From an uncultured Planctomycetota bacterium (GTDB taxonomy: Bacteria; Planctomycetota; PUPC01): a DNA stretch of 64,000 bases. The stretch lies in the NCBI GenBank assembly GCA_964385685.1, contig CAYLQD010000001.1:13432-77431 (forward strand). Reading direction: 5' to 3'. Each line of letters begins with the position of its first letter. Positions within the stretch are counted from its first letter, which is position 1. The notes beneath the pieces are model-generated. The model ran no database searches and was not told where the DNA came from. It saw nothing but the letters and a program-made list of their open reading frames with translations. A program made the position numbers and the translations under genes. Below are positions 3,629 through 9,753 of this stretch, in pieces.

Positions 3629-3653
3629 GCCCCAAAAAGACCGAAGAAACGAC

Positions 3654-3720
3654 TTGACAAGTCCAGGTAGAAGATGTAAGCTACTAACGTTATCTGACGG
3701 AAGATAACGGAACCTAACGG
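3654..3720 (+). promoter_or_regulatory. candidate promoter plus operator of the RM operon
   Basis: TTGACA (3654-3659), 17-nt spacer, TG-TAAGCT (3675-3682). Immediately downstream is a perfect inverted repeat CGTTATCT-GACGGA-AGATAACG (3688-3709) flanked by direct CTAACG(G) repeats (3684-3689, 3714-3720). Confidence 0.4.
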
Positions 3721-3844
3721 AGCGGTTGCTGCTCATGAGGGGGTAGGCCGATGGGAAAGCAGGAGCACGGTGCGCTGGGCCACGAAGGAGCCGCCAACCT
3801 GAAGCCGGGCCAAATACGTGACTTCATCTCGGGTCGGCCGTGCA

Positions 3845-6328
3845 ATGCGACGCCGGAAGAAGTCGAGGCCCGTGCAGGTCTTCGCCCGACGCCTGGTCGA
3901 AGACTACGGCTATCCGAAGTCACATCTGCAAACACGCCCCCAGTTCCGCGTCCGGAAGCACCCGTCGGACGAGAAGAAATCGTATCCCGTCGACATCGCC
4001 GTGTTCAAGTCCGCTGACAGGAGCGAGCAGCAGTTGTCTATGGTGGTCGAGTGCAAGAAAAAGACTCGAAAAGACGGAGTTGCCCAGCTCAAGCTGTACC
4101 TGGACATGTCCGCCGCCGACGTTGGCGTCTGGTTCAATGGCGACGAGCACGAGTACCTGCATAAGATTCACCACAAGGACGGGTCGCGCACCTACGACCG
4201 GTTGCCGAACATTCCACGACACGGACAGCGCATCGAGGACATCGGTCTCTTCCAGCGCAAGGACCTGAAGAAGCCGTCGAACCTCAAGGCCGTCTTCCGC
4301 GATCTGCGCAACCACCTTGCAGGCATGACCACCGGAATCACGCGCGACGAAGCGCTGGCACAGGAAATCATCAACATCCTGTTTTGCAAGATTCTCGACG
4401 AGCAGGAGACGGAACCGGAGGACACAGTCAACTTTCGTGCCGGTGTCGGGGAGAAACCCGATGCGGTCCGCAGGCGCATCCTCAAGCTGTTCGAGCGCGT
4501 GAAGACCGCCACGTTCGAGGATGTCTTCGACGCCACTGACACGATTGGCCTTGACGCCGAAAGTCTGCGGTACGTGGTCGGTGAGCTGCAGAACTACTGG
4601 ATCACGGGGGCCGACAGGGATGCCATTGGCGACGCGTTCGAGGTATTCATCGGCCCCGCCCTTCGAGGGTCGGAAGGACAATTTTTCACGCCGAGGAACG
4701 TTGTCAAAATGATGGTGGAGATCCTGGAGCCAAAACCGGGCGAAAAGATCGTCGATCCGGCTTGCGGGTCTGGCGGATTTCTTATTTGTGCTTTGGAGCA
4801 CGTCTGGGCGCACCTCAAAGAGGAAGCTAAACGGAAGAAATGGAACGATCGCCTTCTGTTCAAACGCGAAGTGGAGGTTGCTACGGATTGCTTCAGGGGG
4901 ATTGACAAGGACGCTTTCCTGGCAAAAGTCTGTAAGGCGTACATGGCCTTGGTGGGCGACGGGCGTGGCGGCGTTTTCTGTGCCAACTCCCTCAGCCGGC
5001 CCGAAGAATGGCACCCGGTCATGCGGGATAAGATAGGTTTGGGCCAGTTTGATGTCCTGCTGACCAATCCTCCTTTTGGGAAGAAGATCATCGTCAAGGG
5101 TGCGCCCGTTCTTTCGCAGTTCGACCTCGGCTACAAGTGGAAGCGGGACAAAGAAACGAAGGAACTGGAAAAAACCACAACCCTTCACGACGACCAGCCG
5201 CCGCAGATTCTGTTTCTTGAACGCTGCCTGCAATTGCTCAAACCCGGCGGACGGCTCGGCATTGTCCTACCGGAGGCCGTCTTCGGCATGCCAACCTATG
5301 AGTACGTCGTCGCTTGGCTGCGCAGGCGCGCGAAGATACGGGGCATTGTTTCAATGCCGGAACCGCTTTTCAAGACGAGCGGCAAGGGTGGGACCCACGC
5401 CAAGGTCTGTGTTTTGTTCCTGGAGAACGCCGTGCCGGAGGAAGACGAGGACTGGGACATCTTCATGGCCGATGTGAAGTGGTGCGGACATGATTCTAGG
5501 GCTAACCCCACAGTCCGGAAAGACGAAGACGGGAACTTGACGCTCCTGGATGACATCCCTGCTGTGGCGCAAAGATATGTTGAGGTCGTCAAACAGAAAG
5601 GTGTGTGTCCCCGCGACCGTTACGGTTTCCTGCAACGGCTGTCTAAGATGCACAATGGGATTTTCATTCCCAAGTACTATGACCCCCAGATCGAAGGTGA
5701 TTTATGTGCGCTCGCGATAACACATGAGCTTGTGCCGTTGCAGGAACTTGTAGAGAAGCGAGTATTGTCTTGGGACACCGGCATTGAAATCGGCAAGATG
5801 GCCTATGGTACGGGGAACATTCCTTTCATTCGAACGTCGGACATCTCAAACTGGGAACTCAAAGGTGATCCCAAACAGAATGTGAGCGAGGAAATCTATG
5901 AGGCAAACAAGCAAGACGTACAGGCCGAGGACATACTCGTTGTTCGAGACGGGACGTATCTGGTAGGCATCTCCTGCATTTTGACCGAGCACGACACGAA
6001 GATTCTCTATTGCGGCGGCATGTACAAGCTACGCGTGGAACACAAGGCGAGACTGGACCCGTACCTGCTGCTGGCTCTCCTGAACTCGCCAATCGTCCGT
6101 CGTCAGATGCGCTCCAAACAGTTCACCCGCGACATCATCGATACGCTCGGCAAGCGGCTATTCGAGGTCGTGTTGCCCATCCCCAAAGACGCTCAGCTTC
6201 GCCGCCGCATTGCAGAAGAGACCCGGCGTGTGATCGAGACGCGGGTGGAACTCCGGAACCGAGCAAAGCAAATCTCACGAGAGGTGGAAGGATTGCCGGG
6301 TTCGGACGCGGAAACCGAGGAGCAATGA
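3845..6328 (+). CDS. single-chain Type IIG-like restriction-modification protein: N-terminal PD-(D/E)xK (HSDR_N-like) nuclease domain + gamma-class N6-adenine MTase + C-terminal HsdS-like target-recognition domain
   Basis: N-terminus VFARRLVEDYGYP...PVDIAVF...MVVECKKK gives a D...E-x-K nuclease signature. FFTPRNVVKMMVEILEPKPGEKIVDPACGSGGFL is motif X/I and LTNPPFGKK is motif IV of N6A MTases. C-terminal about 230 aa resembles an HsdS TRD. ORF begins with GTG at 3818; ATG at 3845 chosen as start. Confidence 0.65.
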   Translation: MRRRKKSRPVQVFARRLVEDYGYPKSHLQTRPQFRVRKHPSDEKKSYPVDIAVFKSADRSEQQLSMVVECKKKTRKDGVAQLKLYLDMSAADVGVWFNGDEHEYLHKIHHKDGSRTYDRLPNIPRHGQRIEDIGLFQRKDLKKPSNLKAVFRDLRNHLAGMTTGITRDEALAQEIINILFCKILDEQETEPEDTVNFRAGVGEKPDAVRRRILKLFERVKTATFEDVFDATDTIGLDAESLRYVVGELQNYWITGADRDAIGDAFEVFIGPALRGSEGQFFTPRNVVKMMVEILEPKPGEKIVDPACGSGGFLICALEHVWAHLKEEAKRKKWNDRLLFKREVEVATDCFRGIDKDAFLAKVCKAYMALVGDGRGGVFCANSLSRPEEWHPVMRDKIGLGQFDVLLTNPPFGKKIIVKGAPVLSQFDLGYKWKRDKETKELEKTTTLHDDQPPQILFLERCLQLLKPGGRLGIVLPEAVFGMPTYEYVVAWLRRRAKIRGIVSMPEPLFKTSGKGGTHAKVCVLFLENAVPEEDEDWDIFMADVKWCGHDSRANPTVRKDEDGNLTLLDDIPAVAQRYVEVVKQKGVCPRDRYGFLQRLSKMHNGIFIPKYYDPQIEGDLCALAITHELVPLQELVEKRVLSWDTGIEIGKMAYGTGNIPFIRTSDISNWELKGDPKQNVSEEIYEANKQDVQAEDILVVRDGTYLVGISCILTEHDTKILYCGGMYKLRVEHKARLDPYLLLALLNSPIVRRQMRSKQFTRDIIDTLGKRLFEVVLPIPKDAQLRRRIAEETRRVIETRVELRNRAKQISREVEGLPGSDAETEEQ

Positions 6329-7902
6329 AGACGTCGCCGAGCGAAACGGAAGTGTTGACCCTCAAGGAGGCGGCGGCCTATGTCCGGGTGAGCCAGAAGA
6401 CCCTGCGGGAACGGGCCAACGCCAAGCAAGTTCCGGGCCAGAAGGTCGGCCGTGAGTGGCGGTTCCTGAAGAAAGCTCTCGACGAATGGCTGTCGGGGGC
6501 GCAAGTCGTTGGCGACGGGGCGGGCGCTGTATCGGAGTCGGTGGGGCAGTTGTACTTGCCCGCCGCCGAGAAGGTGCGCGAGCCGACTAGGGCAGGGTTC
6601 GGCGACACGGCCTTCACCAAGAATCGAGAGGAACCTGTTCACCGCTGGGTGCCATGGGTCGCTGGCTTTTCCTCATCCTTCGTCCGGGAAATACTCGACC
6701 GCGAGGGGATCGACAGTCCCCGCCAGATCGTGCTGGATCCGTTCGCCGGTGTCGGCACGACCCTTGTGGAGAGCGTCAGAGGCGGTGCCAACGCCATCGG
6801 CTTTGAGATTAACCCGTATGCCGCGTTGGCGTGCAAGGTCAAGCTCGAAGCGGTCCGGAAGCCTCCCCGTGAAGTCCGGGACGCCGCGAAGCAACTCGAA
6901 TCCGCCTTGCGAAGATCACTCCGTAACGGTTCACGCCCGACGACCAGCAAGCCGCCGACAGGGTTCCGCACTCGCGACCCGTTCTTCAGCCCGAACGTGG
7001 AACGCCAAGTCCTGCTAGTCAAAGATTTCATCGCCCAGGAGAAACATGCGTGGCTGCGGCGCGTGCTCAACGTTGCCTTTGGTTCGATAATGGTGGGCGT
7101 GTCAAATTACTCCTACGAACCGAGCCTCGGGCGACGTGTTTCCGCTGGGAAGAAGCCGATCCTTGACGCGGACGTCGGTGGCATTCTGCGGGATCAGTTG
7201 CTGCGCATGGCCCAGGATATCGAAATCTTGCAGGCCGACAGGGGCAGCTGGCGCAGCGCCGCCAAGGGGAATGTGTTCAACGAATCCTACATGACGGGAG
7301 CCGGCGGACGCCTCGATCCTGAAACGGTCGACGTTCTAATCACTTCTCCGCCGTATCTGAACAACTACCACTACGTCCGGAACACACGCCCGCAGATTTA
7401 CTGGCTCGATTTTGCGAAGGAAGCCGCTGATTTACGGGACCTCGAAACCACAAGCTTCGGCAAGTTCTGGCAGACGGTCCGCAGTGAGCCGGAGATTGCG
7501 CTGGAGTTCAGTTTTCCCGAACTGGAAGTAAGGCTCTCTGGACTACGGTCCCTTCATCCTGAGAAGGGCGCATACGGCGGGGCGGGCTGGGCGAACTATG
7601 CCGCCACCTATTTCAATGACTGCGCCCGGTTCTGCTCGGTCACCGCGCAAGTGATGAGACCCGGTGGCCTGGTTGTTGTCGTGATCGGCAACAATATCCT
7701 CCAAGGCGTAGAATTCAAGACGGACGAGTTCTTTGCTCATATTGCCGAACAGAGCGGGTTCGAGACCATCGGCCTGCATAGGGTCCGTAAGAAGCGCACC
7801 GGATCGAGTATCGTGAACTCATCCGTGCGGGTGGGGGCAACAAAGAAACGAACTGAGCTGTACGAAACTGCCGTTGAGTTGCGCATGGGAACGGCAACCT
7901 AG
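6325..7902 (+). CDS. DNA amino-methyltransferase (N4-C or N6-A) with N-terminal excisionase/MerR-type HTH
   Basis: Start ATG 6325 overlaps the upstream stop (ATGA at 6325-6328). N-terminal LTLKEAAAYVRVSQKTLRERAN HTH. IVLDPFAGVGTTLVESV SAM-binding motif and LITSPPYLNNYHY catalytic motif. The long in-frame upstream extension from 6010 overlaps the previous gene and is rejected. Confidence 0.6.
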   Translation: MKTSPSETEVLTLKEAAAYVRVSQKTLRERANAKQVPGQKVGREWRFLKKALDEWLSGAQVVGDGAGAVSESVGQLYLPAAEKVREPTRAGFGDTAFTKNREEPVHRWVPWVAGFSSSFVREILDREGIDSPRQIVLDPFAGVGTTLVESVRGGANAIGFEINPYAALACKVKLEAVRKPPREVRDAAKQLESALRRSLRNGSRPTTSKPPTGFRTRDPFFSPNVERQVLLVKDFIAQEKHAWLRRVLNVAFGSIMVGVSNYSYEPSLGRRVSAGKKPILDADVGGILRDQLLRMAQDIEILQADRGSWRSAAKGNVFNESYMTGAGGRLDPETVDVLITSPPYLNNYHYVRNTRPQIYWLDFAKEAADLRDLETTSFGKFWQTVRSEPEIALEFSFPELEVRLSGLRSLHPEKGAYGGAGWANYAATYFNDCARFCSVTAQVMRPGGLVVVVIGNNILQGVEFKTDEFFAHIAEQSGFETIGLHRVRKKRTGSSIVNSSVRVGATKKRTELYETAVELRMGTAT

Positions 7903-8531
7903 CTGCCCCAAGCCGATGCGATCTCACGAAGTATGTCTTCCGTCTTTTCCTCTGCCGTTCGTGTGGCCGCCCACGGCCGCCCGGGATGAAGGATGTCCCA
8001 ACGAGAGCGCTTGCCCGTGCTCCGATACTTCCCTTGTGGATTATTGCCGAAGCCGGTCACAACGGTATTCCAGACCGGGCCCAAACGCTCTATCAGGAAC
8101 CGCTCGGCGAGCGGAATCCAGACCGGTTCAAGAACAAGGTAACGACAACGAAAATCGGAGGTGATCAGGTTTTCAGCATGATCGATACTCTTGGCGTGTT
8201 GCCCCAAACGCTGGCGCAAGGGGCGCTCATCCTCGCGCGCCGAGGATAGCCCCTTCCGTCTGCCAGAAGGAACGGCCTTACCGACATATATTGGCCTGTC
8301 CGACCGACTGATCTTGGCATACCACCCGAGATCTCCCGCGTAGTAGACAGCGTATACTCCAGCGCCCGTGAACTGACGTTTCGGTGGCAGGAGGCCTAAC
8401 GGTTGCGCCATTAGCGCGCCCTCCACGTTCTGGGCGAGATTCTCGTAATCCAGCGGGTCATGCGGTTCGGGCTGCTCGGCTTGGACTCGGGCCACTGACA
8501 CTCCTCCGGGGAACGGTCGCCCTTTCGGCAA
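7899..8531 (-). CDS. GIY-YIG restriction endonuclease, Eco29kI-like
   Basis: 210 aa. GVYAVYY ... PIYVGKA pair (GIY / YIG) followed by Arg/His (RQRLGQH), Glu and Asn positions consistent with the GIY-YIG active site. Size matches the Eco29kI family (about 214 aa). TTG start at 8531. Stop codon overlaps the convergent MTase stop. Confidence 0.5.
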   Translation of the reverse strand: MPKGRPFPGGVSVARVQAEQPEPHDPLDYENLAQNVEGALMAQPLGLLPPKRQFTGAGVYAVYYAGDLGWYAKISRSDRPIYVGKAVPSGRRKGLSSAREDERPLRQRLGQHAKSIDHAENLITSDFRCRYLVLEPVWIPLAERFLIERLGPVWNTVVTGFGNNPQGKYRSTGKRSRWDILHPGRPWAATRTAEEKTEDILREIASAWGS

Positions 8532-8578
8532 GCTCTTATACGCGCCGATGCCGAGACTGTCAACCGGCTCTTGTTGAG

Positions 8579-9643
8579 CTATCGCTTCAGGGCGGTGGCG
8601 AGGGCCTTCTCGTAGGCGGGCGGGATCCGGTGGCCGAGCTTCTTCGCCGTGACCATGTCCGTCCAGGCCTTCCGGAACTGTTTCTTACGGAAGTATCCCA
8701 TCGAGCGGTAGAAGTGCAGGGCGGGGTTGTCGGGCAGCAGCGCGATGGCCTTCGTGAAATCGCTGATCGCGCGGCCGTTCTTCTCCTGCTGGAGATAGAT
8801 GAGGCCGCGCGTGTAGTAGACCTCCGCCCTGTTGGAGCTCTTGTCGATGGCTTTGTCGCAGTCGGCGAGCGCTTTGTCGTGCTGGCCTTTGGCGGCGTAG
8901 GCCTGGGCGCGCCGCCCGTAGGCGTCGCCGAATTTTGGATCGAAGCCAATTGCGCGGCTGGTCCAGCGCAGTTTGTCGTCCGGGTCGTCGGCGGCGCTCG
9001 CCCGGGCGTAGGCCTCGTAGGCCTTGACGCTGTCGGTCGCCGGCTTGCGAAGGTTCGCGAGTTGCTCGGCGGTGAGGGCGATCCGGTCGCCGGCCGCCGC
9101 GTCCCGGACCGCGGGCCGGTTGTCCACGATGACGACCGTCTTGTCGAACGACTTGATGACCGCGTCGGCAAGGTCGAAGAGCGTGTCGAAGAGCTTCGAC
9201 TTCGTCCCGGTGACGCTCGTGGCGCTGAGGATCGCTCCGCTCGCGACGTCGACGACGCGCACGTTGAACATCAGGGTATCGCCGTCGGTGACGTAGGTGC
9301 CGAGCACGACGCGTTCAGCGCCGAGCAGCTTGCCGGCCTTCGCGGCGCCGGCGGGCTCGACGAGGTCCGACTCCTGGAAGCCCCTTTCCCGCGCGATCTG
9401 CGCGACCTGCGAGCGCTCGATCGCGATCAGCCCGGGCACGGCGGCGAGCTTCGTCGTGAGCGTCTCGACGGCGCCCGCGCCGATCCAGTCGGTATCGGCA
9501 TCCGGCCGCAGATTCTTGAACGCAAGCACGGCGATCCGCTTGCTGCGCGGGGCCTCGCGGGCGTCGGCCGCAGGCGCGGCCGCGAACAGGCCCGTTATCA
9601 GTAACCCGATCAAGAGAGTCCGTCGGCTCATCATCCACCCCAT
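8579..9643 (-). CDS. secreted TPR-repeat protein with N-terminal TolB-N/LpoB-like periplasmic domain
   Basis: Signal peptide MMSRRTLLIGLLITGLFAAAPAADA. IAVLAFKNL...DWIGAGAVETLTTKLA domain. C-terminal TPR-like repeats (AYGRRAQAYAAKGQHDKALADCDKAI...). Start at ATG 9643 (internal to ORF 8579..9685). Confidence 0.55.
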   Translation of the reverse strand: MGWMMSRRTLLIGLLITGLFAAAPAADAREAPRSKRIAVLAFKNLRPDADTDWIGAGAVETLTTKLAAVPGLIAIERSQVAQIARERGFQESDLVEPAGAAKAGKLLGAERVVLGTYVTDGDTLMFNVRVVDVASGAILSATSVTGTKSKLFDTLFDLADAVIKSFDKTVVIVDNRPAVRDAAAGDRIALTAEQLANLRKPATDSVKAYEAYARASAADDPDDKLRWTSRAIGFDPKFGDAYGRRAQAYAAKGQHDKALADCDKAIDKSSNRAEVYYTRGLIYLQQEKNGRAISDFTKAIALLPDNPALHFYRSMGYFRKKQFRKAWTDMVTAKKLGHRIPPAYEKALATALKR

Positions 9644-9753
9644 TTCGGAGACCCCTCGCCGATCCGGCCGATCCCGCACTGGCATGATACCCCCGCCCGT
9701 GTGCTTTTCAAGCGAGAAAGATGCGGCGGGTGCTGGCCTAGGATGGACGGCGG

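What the first reader, a model, noticed from the sequence alone, without database searches (positions are those of the whole stretch)
3630..8560. Compact restriction-modification island: a Type IIG-like single-chain enzyme, an HTH-methyltransferase and a convergent Eco29kI-like GIY-YIG nuclease
Seen directly: a 4.9-kb block of about 55-58% GC with foreign codon usage sits between a native radical-SAM gene and a native TPR gene. Gene 1 (3845-6328) combines a PD-(D/E)xK nuclease-type N-terminus (D in PVDIAVF, E-x-K in MVVECKKK), an N6-adenine MTase core (DPACGSGGFL, NPPF) and an HsdS-like TRD. That is the architecture of MmeI-like Type IIG enzymes (established knowledge). Gene 2 (6325-7902) is translationally coupled by an ATGA overlap and encodes an HTH fused to an amino-MTase (DPFAGVGTT, SPPY). 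Gene 3 (7899-8531, opposite strand, stop codons overlapping) has GIY...YIG spacing and a size like Eco29kI. The island therefore appears to hold two restriction activities and two methyltransferases, which is unusual in so small a space. Which MTase protects against which nuclease is not obvious from sequence.
Basis: partly seen in the sequence, partly recalled or inferred. Interest (0 to 1): 0.6.

Follow-up and report, generated by a model that had tools for sequence, protein, structure and literature searches.

The report
Two stacked restriction-modification modules, one broken
The block holds an ordinary Eco29kI-type restriction enzyme with its partner methyltransferase, and a separate single-gene restriction-methylation enzyme that was inserted behind the partner's promoter and, as sequenced, is interrupted by one extra base near its start.

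Summary
The three genes and the low-GC block are real. They are two unrelated restriction-modification (R-M) modules, not one system.

**Module A, genes 2 and 3.** Gene 2 (6325-7902) is an HTH_17 domain fused to an alpha-class amino-methyltransferase. It is 44% identical to M.DraR1, the N4-cytosine methyltransferase for CCGCGG in Deinococcus radiodurans. Gene 3 (7899-8495, minus strand, GTG start) is an Eco29kI-family GIY-YIG nuclease with all six catalytic residues. This pairing recurs in 57 of 68 metagenomic loci. It also sits at the same chromosomal position in a related organism that lacks gene 1.

**Module B, gene 1.** This is a single-chain protein made of a nuclease, an N6-adenine methyltransferase and half of a specificity subunit. 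Its closest solved relative is the Type IIB enzyme BsaXI, not MmeI. The family is very large and occurs as a solitary gene across many phyla. Gene 1 never co-occurs with genes 2 or 3 elsewhere (0 of 160 loci). Here it sits between gene 2's promoter and leader repeats and gene 2's start codon.

**New observation.** Gene 1 carries a one-base insertion (CCC, 3869-3871) that cuts off its conserved first 40 codons and native start (ATG 3751). Otherwise the gene looks pristine.

**Verdict.** Ordinary members of known kinds, in an instructive arrangement. Interest is low to moderate.

The parts
3654..3682 (+). Sigma-70-like promoter (TTGACA 3654-3659, 17 nt, TAAGCT 3677-3682) that now precedes gene 1. 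It is positionally homologous to the promoter in front of the gene 2 homologue in the syntenic relative L006.
   Evidence: Read directly from the sequence. L006 has TTGACA-16-CATAAT at the same place, directly after the radical-SAM stop codon. The consensus scan did not report the window site because the -10 box is weak. Function is inferred.
3695..3724 (+). Three tandem 10-bp leader repeats, TGACGGAAGA / TAACGGAACC / TAACGGAGCG. Putative operator for the HTH_17 domain of gene 2.
   Evidence: The same GGAAGATAAC-GGAA element lies between promoter and start codon of gene 2 homologues in L006, L092-L094, L096-L101, L104 and L108. The motif with at most 1 mismatch is present in 11 of 18 HTH-bearing loci against 8 of 57 HTH-less loci, Fisher p = 2e-4. 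Binding is inferred, not shown.
3751..3870 (+). Native 5' end of gene 1: codons 1-40 (MGKQEHGALGHEGAANLKPGQIRDFISGRPCNATPEEVEA), with SD GAGGGGG at 3737-3743. It is now out of frame with the rest of the gene.
   Evidence: The segment aligns with the conserved N-terminus of all close homologues. D24, E36 and E37 are invariant in 39 sequences and 84-93% conserved in 61 diverse representatives.
3869..3871 (+). Frameshift site: a CCC run with one C more than in homologues (GAGGCC-C-GTGCAG here, GAGGCCGTCCA in the 82%-identical homologues).
   Evidence: The JGI assembly of the same contig (L001) is identical over 16.3 kb, including the CCC. None of the single-chain loci changes frame near this point.
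3872..6328 (+). Main body of gene 1 (818 codons; the annotated 827-aa ORF starts at ATG 3845). Residue numbers below are in the repaired 858-aa sequence.
- PD-(D/E)xK nuclease core: D81 at 3992-3994, E100 at 4049-4051, K102 at 4055-4057, then Q112xxxY116.
- Helical connector.
- N6-adenine methyltransferase: DPACGSGGF from 4754, NPPF at 5066-5077.
- One HsdS-type TRD (about 5609-6300) ending in a long helix (residues 814-845).
6325..7902 (+). Gene 2: HTH_17 (aa 10-57) fused to an alpha-class amino-methyltransferase. Motif I is DPFAGVGTT (aa 138-146), followed by a central TRD and then SPPY (aa 341-344). M.DraR1-like, so probably an N4-cytosine methyltransferase.
   Evidence: tblastn gives 44% identity over aa 89-519, E 3e-87, to the methyltransferase on D. 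radiodurans plasmid CP1. That is M.DraR1, which makes C(4m)CGCGG (PMC6712171). A large HTH-fused family exists.
7899..8495 (-). Gene 3: Eco29kI-family GIY-YIG Type II restriction endonuclease, 198 aa from GTG 8495.
   Evidence: Pfam 6.8e-50. PDB Eco29kI 2e-32. 38% identical to R.DraR1. Eco29kI residues Y49, Y76, R104, H108, E142 and N154 (PMC1952068) correspond to Y60, Y82, R108, H112, E143 and N155 in the 210-aa ORF numbering. All are at least 97% conserved in 121 sequences.
8535..8563 (-). Gene 3's own promoter (TTGACA 8563-8558, 17 nt, TATAAG 8540-8535), followed by SD GGAGGA at 8507-8502.
   Evidence: Read directly from the sequence. It lies in the 83-nt gap after the TPR gene's stop codon. 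Function is inferred.

Best explanation
The block is two independent restriction-modification modules placed end to end.

**Module A (genes 2 and 3).** This is a conventional Type II pair of the Eco29kI/DraI kind.
- The GIY-YIG nuclease cuts an unmethylated palindromic site, most likely CCGCGG (inferred).
- The convergent alpha-class SPPY methyltransferase protects the host, most likely by N4-methylating a cytosine in that site (inferred from 44% identity to M.DraR1).
- The methyltransferase's fused HTH_17 domain probably binds the 10-bp GGAAGATAA-type repeats in its own leader and autoregulates the operon (inferred).
- The nuclease has a separate promoter.

**Module B (gene 1).** This is a one-gene R-M enzyme of the Type IIB/IIG kind.
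- It combines an HsdR-type PD-(D/E)xK nuclease domain, an N6-adenine methyltransferase and a single HsdS-type recognition domain with a dimerisation helix.
- By analogy with (RM)2S BsaXI and the HaeIV homodimer, it would act as a dimer on a symmetric bipartite site. It would methylate adenine and cut nearby (inferred).
- It was inserted between module A's promoter and operator and gene 2's start codon. It is therefore co-transcribed with gene 2 and translationally coupled to it.
- As sequenced, one extra C after codon 40 disconnects it from its native start and from the first beta-hairpin and half of helix 1 of the nuclease domain.
- If the extra C is real, module B makes at best an N-terminally truncated protein that may still methylate. 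In that case only module A restricts.
For: **Modularity**
- 57 of 68 gene 2-family loci with room downstream carry an Eco29kI homologue immediately next to the methyltransferase (48 convergent). None of 80 carries gene 1.
- None of 80 gene 1-family loci carries gene 2 or gene 3.
- Gene 1 homologues stand alone among housekeeping genes.

**Insertion**
- The syntenic relative L006 has dUTPase | Eco29kI | HTH-methyltransferase | radical-SAM, without gene 1.
- Its promoter and GGAAGATAACGGAA leader are homologous to the sequence now upstream of gene 1.

**Module A identity:**; PMC1952068, PMC6712171, PMC10855626.

**Module B identity**
-.
- The motif D81...E100xK102...Q112xxxY116 is 92-100% conserved in 61 representatives that are only 24-74% identical.
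- In BsaXI, the N-terminal E73/D90/E105/K107 residues are needed for cleavage (PMC11997821).
- Split RM + two-TRD S forms occur in about 25 of 80 loci.
- Small upstream regulators typical of toxic R-M genes: XRE HTH in 6 loci, RHH in 3 plus L173, HTH_17 in 3.

**Frameshift:**
Against: - No biochemical or methylome data exist. The CCGCGG specificity of module A rests on 38-44% identity to characterised enzymes.
- CCGCGG is not avoided in the window (93 observed, 96 expected).
- Operator function of the repeats is inferred. 8 of 57 HTH-less loci also show the motif.
- No member of the gene 1 family has been shown to cut DNA. Its best curated hit is MAD2, a methyltransferase of a multi-gene system, below cut-off. 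Many relatives lack the nuclease domain altogether.
- The frameshift could be an assembly error. The gene has no other lesion and no private change at invariant columns. An untranslated 2.3 kb ahead of gene 2 would risk polarity on the protective methyltransferase (inference).
- The insertion junctions could not be resolved to the base, and no flanking repeats were found.
Confidence: 0.72

Rival explanations
1. The extra C is a sequencing or assembly artefact, or a minority allele. Gene 1 would then be an intact 858-aa enzyme starting at ATG 3751, and the locus would carry two active restriction systems. This is essentially the first reader's picture with a corrected family assignment.
For: - The repaired ORF is 858 aa, matching homologues of 857-862 aa.
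- There are no private substitutions at columns invariant in the other 38 sequences, against a family median of 1.
- The out-of-frame N-terminal 40 codons are still perfectly conserved.
- Polarity on gene 2 would be dangerous if gene 1 were untranslated (inference).
Against: - The JGI contig record fetched separately (L001) carries the same CCC, and the same 827-aa ORF is recorded under NCBI, JGI and ENA. These probably derive from the same reads.
- A 3-base homopolymer is not a typical error site for short-read consensus (established knowledge).
Confidence: 0.25
2. Gene 1 is only a modification and specificity protein. Its N-terminal PD-(D/E)xK-like domain would not be a restriction nuclease, for example serving as a DNA-binding or partner-docking module as may be the case for MAD2 in the multi-gene MADS system. 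The locus would then have one restriction activity regardless of the frameshift.
For: - The best curated family hit is MAD2 (378 bits, E 1e-112), and the TRD hits MAD5.
- The closest PADLOC models are labelled MTase_II and MTase_I rather than Type IIG.
- A large set of relatives lacks the N-terminal domain entirely and is about 650-700 aa.
- No family member has been characterised, as far as the searches here showed.
Against: - The MAD2 score is far below the curated cut-off of 720, and no mad3-mad8-like neighbours occur in the window or in the other loci examined.
- The catalytic-type residues D, ExK and QxxxY are 92-100% conserved across distant relatives.
- The fold matches active nuclease domains of BpuSI, HsdR and DrdV.
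- The homologous domain of BsaXI is catalytic (PMC11997821).
- Solitary genes with small upstream regulators are the pattern of toxic, self-contained R-M enzymes.
Confidence: 0.12
3. All three genes form one integrated system, for example with gene 1 and gene 2 both needed to protect against gene 3, or with gene 2's HTH evolved as gene 1's controller.
For: Operon structure: a shared promoter and leader, the ATGA overlap between gene 1 and gene 2, and tight convergent packing with gene 3.
Against: - Co-occurrence is 0 of 80 and 0 of 80 in the two scans.
- The gene 2/gene 3 pair with the same leader exists without gene 1 at the same chromosomal site.
- The HTH fusion and its leader motif are properties of the gene 2 family wherever it occurs.
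Confidence: 0.03

Closest known systems
DraI system of Deinococcus radiodurans R1 (R.DraR1 + M.DraR1; PMC6712171, PMC10855626)
   Same: An Eco29kI-family GIY-YIG nuclease combined with an alpha-class amino-methyltransferase (FxGxG, then TRD, then SPPY). Gene 2 is 44% identical to M.DraR1 and gene 3 is 38% identical to R.DraR1.
   Different: - Here the two genes are adjacent and convergent. In D. radiodurans they lie about 10 ORFs apart on plasmid CP1.
- Gene 2 carries an extra N-terminal HTH_17 domain.
- Specificity and the methylated base are untested here.
- The paper calls such m4C systems rare (3 against 310 m5C systems in REBASE). The metagenome scan found at least 569 relatives of the methyltransferase, and most of those examined are paired with an Eco29kI homologue.
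Eco29kI / Cfr42I (CCGC^GG, GIY-YIG Type IIP; PDB 3mx4; PMC1952068, PMC2241918)
   Same: Gene 3 matches the Pfam family (169.5 bits) and the Eco29kI chain (2e-32), and conserves all six active-site residues.
   Different: The cognate methyltransferase of Eco29kI is a C5-cytosine enzyme. Here the partner is an amino-methyltransferase. Oligomeric state and metal preference are unknown.
BsaXI and BcgI (Type IIB, (RM)2S; PDB 8w0p; PMC11997821)
   Same: BsaXI is the best sequence, profile and fold match of gene 1. Both have an N-terminal PD-(D/E)xK domain, a helical connector and an N6A methyltransferase. About 25 of 80 relatives of gene 1 have exactly the two-gene form: RM plus an S gene with two TRDs.
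   Different: - Gene 1 has one TRD fused to the RM chain.
- It has no counterpart of the BsaXI 'paddle'.
- Only about 22% identity.
[quoted passage not shown]
HaeIV, and AloI/TstI (single-chain Type IIB RM-S enzymes; PMC4027205)
   Same: Restriction, modification and recognition are in one polypeptide. HaeIV acts as a homodimer, which is the expected mode for a chain with a single TRD.
   Different: AloI and TstI carry two TRDs and are tetramers.
MAD2 / MAD5 of the methylation-associated defence system MADS (NCBIfam NF047738, NF047740)
   Same: The N-terminal domain plus methyltransferase of gene 1 aligns over nearly the whole MAD2 model (E 1e-113). The TRD hits MAD5. Gene 2's HTH hits MAD1.
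   Different: All scores are below the curated cut-offs (378 against 720, 32 against 400, 49 against 80). No other mad genes are nearby.
   Different: Only the MmeI_Mtase model is touched, at 28.4 bits against a cut-off of 27, over 69 residues. There are no MmeI N-terminal, helical-spacer, TRD or C-terminal domains. The TRD is HsdS-type.

Membership tests
Eco29kI family GIY-YIG restriction endonuclease (PF09517) | Full-length match to the family profile above the curated threshold | tested here: met
   169.5 bits against a cut-off of 30.8, E 6.8e-50, profile positions 2-161 of 164. Eco29kI chain 3mx4 at E 2e-32.
Eco29kI family GIY-YIG restriction endonuclease (PF09517) | Active-site residues Y49, Y76, R104, H108, E142 and N154 of Eco29kI | tested here: met
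   They correspond to Y60, Y82, R108, H112, E143 and N155 in the 210-aa ORF numbering. All are at least 97% conserved in 121 aligned sequences (residues from PMC1952068).
Eco29kI family GIY-YIG restriction endonuclease (PF09517) | Adjacent cognate methyltransferase | tested here: met
   Convergent with gene 2 and overlapping it by 4 nt. The same pairing occurs in 57 of 68 loci and in L006, L008 and L009.
Eco29kI family GIY-YIG restriction endonuclease (PF09517) | Cleavage of CCGC^GG | not testable with these tools
   The only indirect test was motif avoidance: CCGCGG is not avoided in the window (93 against 96 expected). This neither supports nor excludes the specificity.
M.DraR1-like alpha-class N4-cytosine methyltransferase | Motif order FxGxG (N-terminal), then central TRD, then SPPY (C-terminal) | tested here: met
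   DPFAGVGTT at aa 138-146 and SPPY at aa 341-344, both invariant in 32 sequences. The Pfam N6_N4_Mtase model matches only its motif I end, consistent with a permuted order.
M.DraR1-like alpha-class N4-cytosine methyltransferase | Homology to M.DraR1 (DR_C0020) | tested here: met
   44.2% identity over aa 89-519, E 3e-87, on D. radiodurans plasmid CP1. An Eco29kI-family gene is on the same plasmid.
M.DraR1-like alpha-class N4-cytosine methyltransferase | N4-methylation of the second C of CCGCGG | not testable with these tools
   Needs SMRT or nanopore methylome data or an in vitro assay.
Single-chain Type IIB/IIG RM-S enzyme (BsaXI/BcgI-related) | N-terminal PD-(D/E)xK nuclease fold with catalytic D...(D/E)xK | tested here: met
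Single-chain Type IIB/IIG RM-S enzyme (BsaXI/BcgI-related) | Gamma-type N6-adenine methyltransferase core (motif I, then NPPF) | tested here: met
   N6_Mtase at 118 bits. DPACGSGGF and NPPF are invariant. BsaXI RM at 3.7e-38 by profile.
Single-chain Type IIB/IIG RM-S enzyme (BsaXI/BcgI-related) | HsdS-type target recognition domain | tested here: inconclusive
   - Pfam Methylase_S scores only 13.8 bits against a cut-off of 22.
- NCBIfam MAD5 S-subunit gives 4.5e-8 and Type I S gives 1.9e-4. PADLOC mad5 gives 6.8e-12.
- Relatives have a separate S gene with two copies of this domain.
Single-chain Type IIB/IIG RM-S enzyme (BsaXI/BcgI-related) | Intact reading frame from the native start | tested here: not met
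   A one-base insertion at 3869-3871 separates codons 1-40 from the rest.
Single-chain Type IIB/IIG RM-S enzyme (BsaXI/BcgI-related) | Site-specific cleavage at fixed distance, with self-methylation of the same site | not testable with these tools
   No family member was found with biochemical data.
MmeI family (Type IIL) | MmeI-specific N-terminal nuclease, helical spacer, TRD and C-terminal domains | tested here: not met
   Only PF20473 MmeI_Mtase matches, at 28.4 bits against a cut-off of 27, over aa 301-369. No other MmeI models match.
MADS (methylation-associated defence system) | MAD2 equivalog score, and presence of the other mad genes | tested here: not met
   377.6 bits against a cut-off of 720. 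The neighbours are radical-SAM, TPR, dUTPase and CoaBC genes. Flanks of 80 relatives show no conserved multi-gene partner set.

The most novel reading that the evidence does not exclude
Two related readings remain open.

1. Gene 1 may belong to a very large, uncharacterised family of one-gene R-M elements. The whole chain, including the recognition domain, stays 47-81% identical across Nitrospirota, Chloroflexota, Planctomycetota, Acidobacteriota, Actinomycetota, Bacillota and archaea. That would make it a promiscuously transferred selfish gene of fixed specificity.

2. Here that gene has landed precisely between another R-M system's promoter/operator and its methyltransferase gene. It would thereby have replaced its own usual small regulator (RHH, XRE or HTH_17) with the host system's autoregulated leader. 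One R-M system would be piggy-backing on the expression control of another.

The conserved GGAAGATAA 10-bp repeats would then be a previously undescribed operator for HTH_17-fused methyltransferases.
Probability: 0.3. Interest if true: 0.5.

Novelty: new member of a known kind. Interest (0 to 1): 0.3.

Why it matters
The SPPY methyltransferase is the partner of the Eco29kI-like nuclease, and the large fusion protein is a separate self-contained module.

It shows that DraI-type R-M pairs (amino-methyltransferase plus GIY-YIG nuclease) are common in environmental bacteria. A 2024 paper described them as rare on the basis of REBASE.

It flags a very widespread, biochemically untouched family of BsaXI-related single-chain enzymes that might yield new specificities.

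It gives a clean natural example of one R-M gene inserted into the regulatory leader of another.

It is also a caution for annotation. The source gene calls missed the nuclease gene altogether and hid a frameshift behind a plausible internal ATG.

None of this changes what is known about how R-M systems work.

Tried and rejected
1. **CCGCGG avoidance as a proxy for module A's specificity.** No avoidance was found (93 observed, 96 expected). The island itself has no sites, but only about 2-3 are expected there. Uninformative.
2. **Direct or inverted repeats flanking gene 1 as insertion scars.** Only short chance-level matches were found.
3. **Exact-pattern scan of metagenome contigs for intact (CC) and frameshifted (CCC) alleles.** There were no matches at all. 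Even the source contig is not in that collection. Population-level evidence on the frameshift is therefore lacking.
4. **Cluster look-up for organism names of the source proteins.** No names were recorded, so the host taxon is left unassigned.
5. **Programmed +1 frameshifting or transcriptional slippage at GCC-CGT.** Rejected by inspection. There is no slippery or hungry codon context and only a 3-base run (inference).
6. **Internal start at ATG 3845 or GTG 3818.** No convincing Shine-Dalgarno sequence lies upstream of either.
7. **The MADS reading of gene 1 and of gene 2's HTH.** Scores are below cut-offs and no partner genes are present.
8. **The MmeI-family reading.** Rejected.
9. **Mapping BsaXI's catalytic E73 onto gene 1.** The only N-terminal sequence alignment is insignificant (0.2 bits). 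It places E73 near residues 60-64 rather than at E36/E37. The role of the residues lost to the frameshift therefore remains inferred.
10. **The consensus promoter scan.** It did not report either promoter proposed here. Both were identified by eye and by comparison with relatives.

Full report
**1. Observation**

The composition dip is real. GC falls from 0.66-0.73 in the flanks to 0.51-0.61 between about 3500 and 8500. GC3 is 0.71, 0.73 and 0.65 for the three genes, against 0.84-0.92 for eight neighbouring genes.

| Gene | Pfam matches | Motifs |
|---|---|---|
| Gene 1 | HSDR_N_2 (4e-12) and N6_Mtase (6e-34) | DPACGSGGF, NPPF |
| Gene 2 | HTH_17 (8e-12) and the motif I end of N6_N4_Mtase | DPFAGVGTT, then SPPY |
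| Gene 3 | RE_Eco29kI (6.8e-50) | GIY-YIG active site |

The ATGA overlap of genes 1 and 2 and the 4-nt convergent overlap of genes 2 and 3 are as described.

**2. Gene 3**

Gene 3 matches the solved Eco29kI chain at 2e-32 and is 38% identical to R.DraR1 of Deinococcus radiodurans. The six Eco29kI active-site residues defined by mutagenesis are Y49, Y76, R104, H108, E142 and N154 (PMC1952068). They align with Y60, Y82, R108, H112, E143 and N155 of the 210-aa ORF. All are at least 97% conserved in 121 aligned sequences.

Homologues start where the window has GTG 8495, preceded by GGAGGA at 8507-8502. The TTG at 8531 lies 4 nt after a TTGACA-17-TATAAG promoter (8563-8535) that fills the gap after the TPR gene's stop codon. 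The gene is therefore 7899-8495, 198 aa.

The source annotation did not call this gene at all. It placed a 71-aa ORF on the other strand. The exact protein is absent from the 5.8-billion-protein collection; the best hit is 77% identical.

**3. Gene 2 and its pairing with gene 3**

Residues 89-519 are 44% identical (E 3e-87) to the methyltransferase on D. radiodurans plasmid CP1. That enzyme is M.DraR1, shown experimentally to be an alpha-class N4-cytosine methyltransferase making C(4m)CGCGG (PMC6712171). Its cognate nuclease is an Eco29kI homologue (PMC10855626). Gene 2 has the same motif order, FxGxG then TRD then SPPY, plus an N-terminal HTH_17 domain. That domain is a fixed feature of a large subfamily.

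In a metagenome scan, 57 of 68 loci with at least 500 nt downstream of the methyltransferase carry an Eco29kI homologue immediately next to it. Of these, 48 are convergent and 9 co-directional, and gaps are mostly -5 to 113 nt. The same arrangement is seen in L006, L008 and L009. Gene 2 is therefore the protecting partner of gene 3.

Recognition of CCGCGG is an inference from family membership. CCGCGG is not depleted in the window (93 against 96 expected), which decides nothing.

**4. Gene 1: family**

- By sequence, the best solved relative is the RM subunit of the Type IIB enzyme BsaXI (3e-25 with the single sequence, 3.7e-38 with a profile).
- An AlphaFold2 model of the repaired protein (pLDDT 81.6) also finds BsaXI first (7.5e-22 over 658 columns).
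- In 61 cluster representatives whose N-terminal domains are only 24-74% identical to the window, D81 is 100% conserved. E100 is 93%, K102 92%, Q112 93% and Y116 92% conserved (repaired numbering). This is the D...ExK...QxxxY signature of HsdR/RecB-type nucleases (established knowledge).
- In BsaXI, alanine changes at E73, D90, E105 and K107 of the corresponding domain abolish cleavage (PMC11997821).

The C-terminal 230 residues hit S-subunit models only weakly. NCBIfam MAD5 gives 4.5e-8, a Type I S model gives 1.9e-4, and PADLOC mad5 gives 6.8e-12. Pfam Methylase_S is below threshold.

About 25 of 80 genomic relatives are split into an RM gene (query residues 1-613) and a following gene with two copies of this domain. 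That is the BcgI/BsaXI layout. The family also includes forms without the nuclease domain, about 650-700 aa.

The MmeI comparison fails. Only the MmeI methyltransferase model is touched, at its threshold. The MADS comparison also fails, at 378 bits against a cut-off of 720 and with no partner genes.

**5. Gene 1 is independent of genes 2 and 3**

More than 6,600 homologues were found. The best 120 are 67-82% identical over the full length. Relatives at 47-81% identity occur in Nitrospirota, Chloroflexota, Verrucomicrobiota, Acidobacteriota, Planctomycetota, Mycobacterium, a Lactobacillus johnsonii MAG and several archaea.

None of 80 such loci contains a gene 2 or gene 3 homologue. None of 80 gene 2 loci contains gene 1. 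The homologues are solitary genes among housekeeping genes.

They are often preceded by a small regulator:
- an XRE-type HTH in 6 loci and in L004;
- a ribbon-helix-helix (RHH) protein in 3 loci and, overlapping the start, in the 82%-identical L173;
- HTH_17 in 3 loci;
- a RadC-like JAB protein in 9 loci.

This is the pattern expected of a self-contained, potentially toxic R-M gene.

**6. How the two modules came together**

Contig L006, from a related organism, shares the gene order dUTPase-CoaBC-Gmk-YicC-SecG-TIM on one side and radical-SAM/SPASM on the other, at 71-75% nucleotide identity. At the same place it carries Eco29kI | HTH-methyltransferase, but no gene 1 and no TPR gene.

In L006, the 96 nt between the radical-SAM stop codon and the methyltransferase start contain TTGACA-16-CATAAT. 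They are followed by TGGCGGAAGA TAACGGAAGC TAAGGGAGGT. The window has the equivalent TTGACA-17-TAAGCT (3654-3682) and TGACGGAAGA TAACGGAACC TAACGGAGCG (3695-3724). Gene 1 then follows with its own Shine-Dalgarno sequence, and only after gene 1 comes gene 2.

The same GGAAGATAA-type 10-bp repeats lie in the leaders of other HTH-bearing gene 2 relatives. The motif is present in 11 of 18 HTH-bearing loci against 8 of 57 HTH-less ones (Fisher p = 2e-4).

The parsimonious reading is that gene 1 was inserted between module A's promoter/operator and the methyltransferase start codon. It now rides in that operon. Operator function of the repeats is inferred. The exact junctions could not be defined, and no flanking repeats were found.

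**7. The frameshift**

Every close homologue begins about 30 residues before the window's ATG 3845, with a conserved LKPGxIxDYISGxPVKATPEExEAVQVFARRL. In the window this segment is encoded from ATG 3751 (SD GAGGGGG) in a different frame. That frame runs into a stop codon at 4017.

The two frames are joined by deleting one C from GAGGCC-C-GTG (3869-3871). This gives an 858-aa protein, against 857-862 aa for homologues. The 82%-identical homologues read GAGGCCGTCCA at this point.

In the model, the break falls inside helix 1 (residues 35-51). It removes the beta-hairpin at residues 21-32 and residues D24, E36 and E37. These are invariant among close homologues and 84-93% conserved among distant ones. 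No good ribosome-binding site precedes ATG 3845 or GTG 3818.

Apart from this one base the gene is immaculate. It has no private change at any column that is invariant in the other 38 sequences, against a family median of 1. The JGI contig record fetched separately (L001) carries the same CCC, but it probably derives from the same reads. A scan for alternative alleles found nothing.

I therefore regard the frameshift as probably real and very recent (about 0.7). An artefact is not excluded.

If it is real, the nuclease domain is disrupted. At best an N-terminally truncated protein that may still methylate is made. That outcome would mirror the natural nuclease-less members of the family.

**8. 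Verdict**

- There are two methyltransferases and two nuclease domains, but they belong to two unrelated modules whose pairing is now clear.
- The large protein is BsaXI/BcgI-like rather than MmeI-like.
- That protein is broken as sequenced.
- Close packing of R-M systems is not in itself unusual.

All parts are members of known kinds. The modestly interesting points are the precise insertion of one R-M gene into another's regulatory leader, the abundance of DraI-type pairs in metagenomes, and the size and conservation of the uncharacterised gene 1 family.

Noticed in passing
L001 2032-6128 (source contig, ending 28 nt before window position 1): Just upstream of the window the same contig carries another large N6_Mtase/Eco57I-type protein (1093 aa), followed by an overlapping 277-aa ORF with no Pfam hit. 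A third R-M-like module therefore lies within about 4 kb of the island.
   Followed up: no
window 1-64000: The hexamers CAGCTG (5 observed, 22.8 expected) and GAGCTC (7 observed, 29.6 expected) are strongly depleted. AAGCTT is at 0.5 of expectation. The core AGCT is not depleted (1.19). CTAG is at 0.32. This may be a footprint of past or present R-M systems with SAGCTS-type sites elsewhere in the genome.
   Followed up: partly
window 7899-8495 (minus strand); L001 14190-14405: The source annotation missed the Eco29kI-like gene and called a 71-aa ORF on the opposite strand. The exact protein is absent from the 5.8-billion-protein collection.
   Followed up: yes
L018, L019, L038, L040, L048, L049, L052, L053, L060, L064-L067, L070, L071, L073, L085, L088, L090: Relatives of gene 1 occur in alternative architectures. 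One is an RM gene plus a separate S gene with two TRDs. Another is the fused RM-TRD followed by an extra half-S gene. Others lack the nuclease domain (L057, L062, L083; many representatives of about 650-700 aa). L086-L088 show frame changes elsewhere in the gene.
   Followed up: partly
L036, L065, L069, L082, L087, L091 and others, about 40-800 nt upstream of the gene 1 homologue: A RadC-like JAB/UPF0758 protein (250 aa) lies directly upstream of the gene 1 homologue in 9 of 80 loci. In 3 of these it is preceded by a 67-aa HTH_17 protein. The link between RadC-JAB proteins and this R-M family is unexplained.
   Followed up: partly
L107, L110, L111, L148, L120 (leaders of HTH-bearing gene 2 relatives): A subgroup of HTH-methyltransferase relatives has a leader containing CCGCGG or CGCGG half-sites instead of the GGAAGATAA repeats, for example TCCCGCGGATTTCGCGG. 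L110, L111 and L148 have no Eco29kI neighbour in the sequence held (L107 was not listed among the loci lacking one, and L120 has too little downstream sequence to tell). This fits a CCGCGG specificity for the family and suggests a different, methylation-linked autoregulation.
   Followed up: no
window 8579-9685 (minus strand): The TPR/CsgG-FlgO-like lipoprotein gene between gene 3 and the dUTPase gene has native GC3 (0.90). It is absent at this position in the syntenic relative L006, so the locus has undergone more than one gene gain or loss.
   Followed up: no
L009 about 9190-9330 (reverse strand): Upstream of the gene 2 homologue in L009 lies DNA encoding the C-terminal ...CSRCTELYRF end of the radical-SAM/SPASM protein, although no such gene is called there. 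The R-M pair may occupy the same chromosomal site in a third lineage.
   Followed up: no
L173 1-2454: The 82%-identical gene 1 homologue P0003, with its overlapping RHH gene, sits next to Mu-like capsid (gpT) and Prim-Pol/AAA_25 genes. This suggests carriage on a prophage or other mobile element.
   Followed up: no
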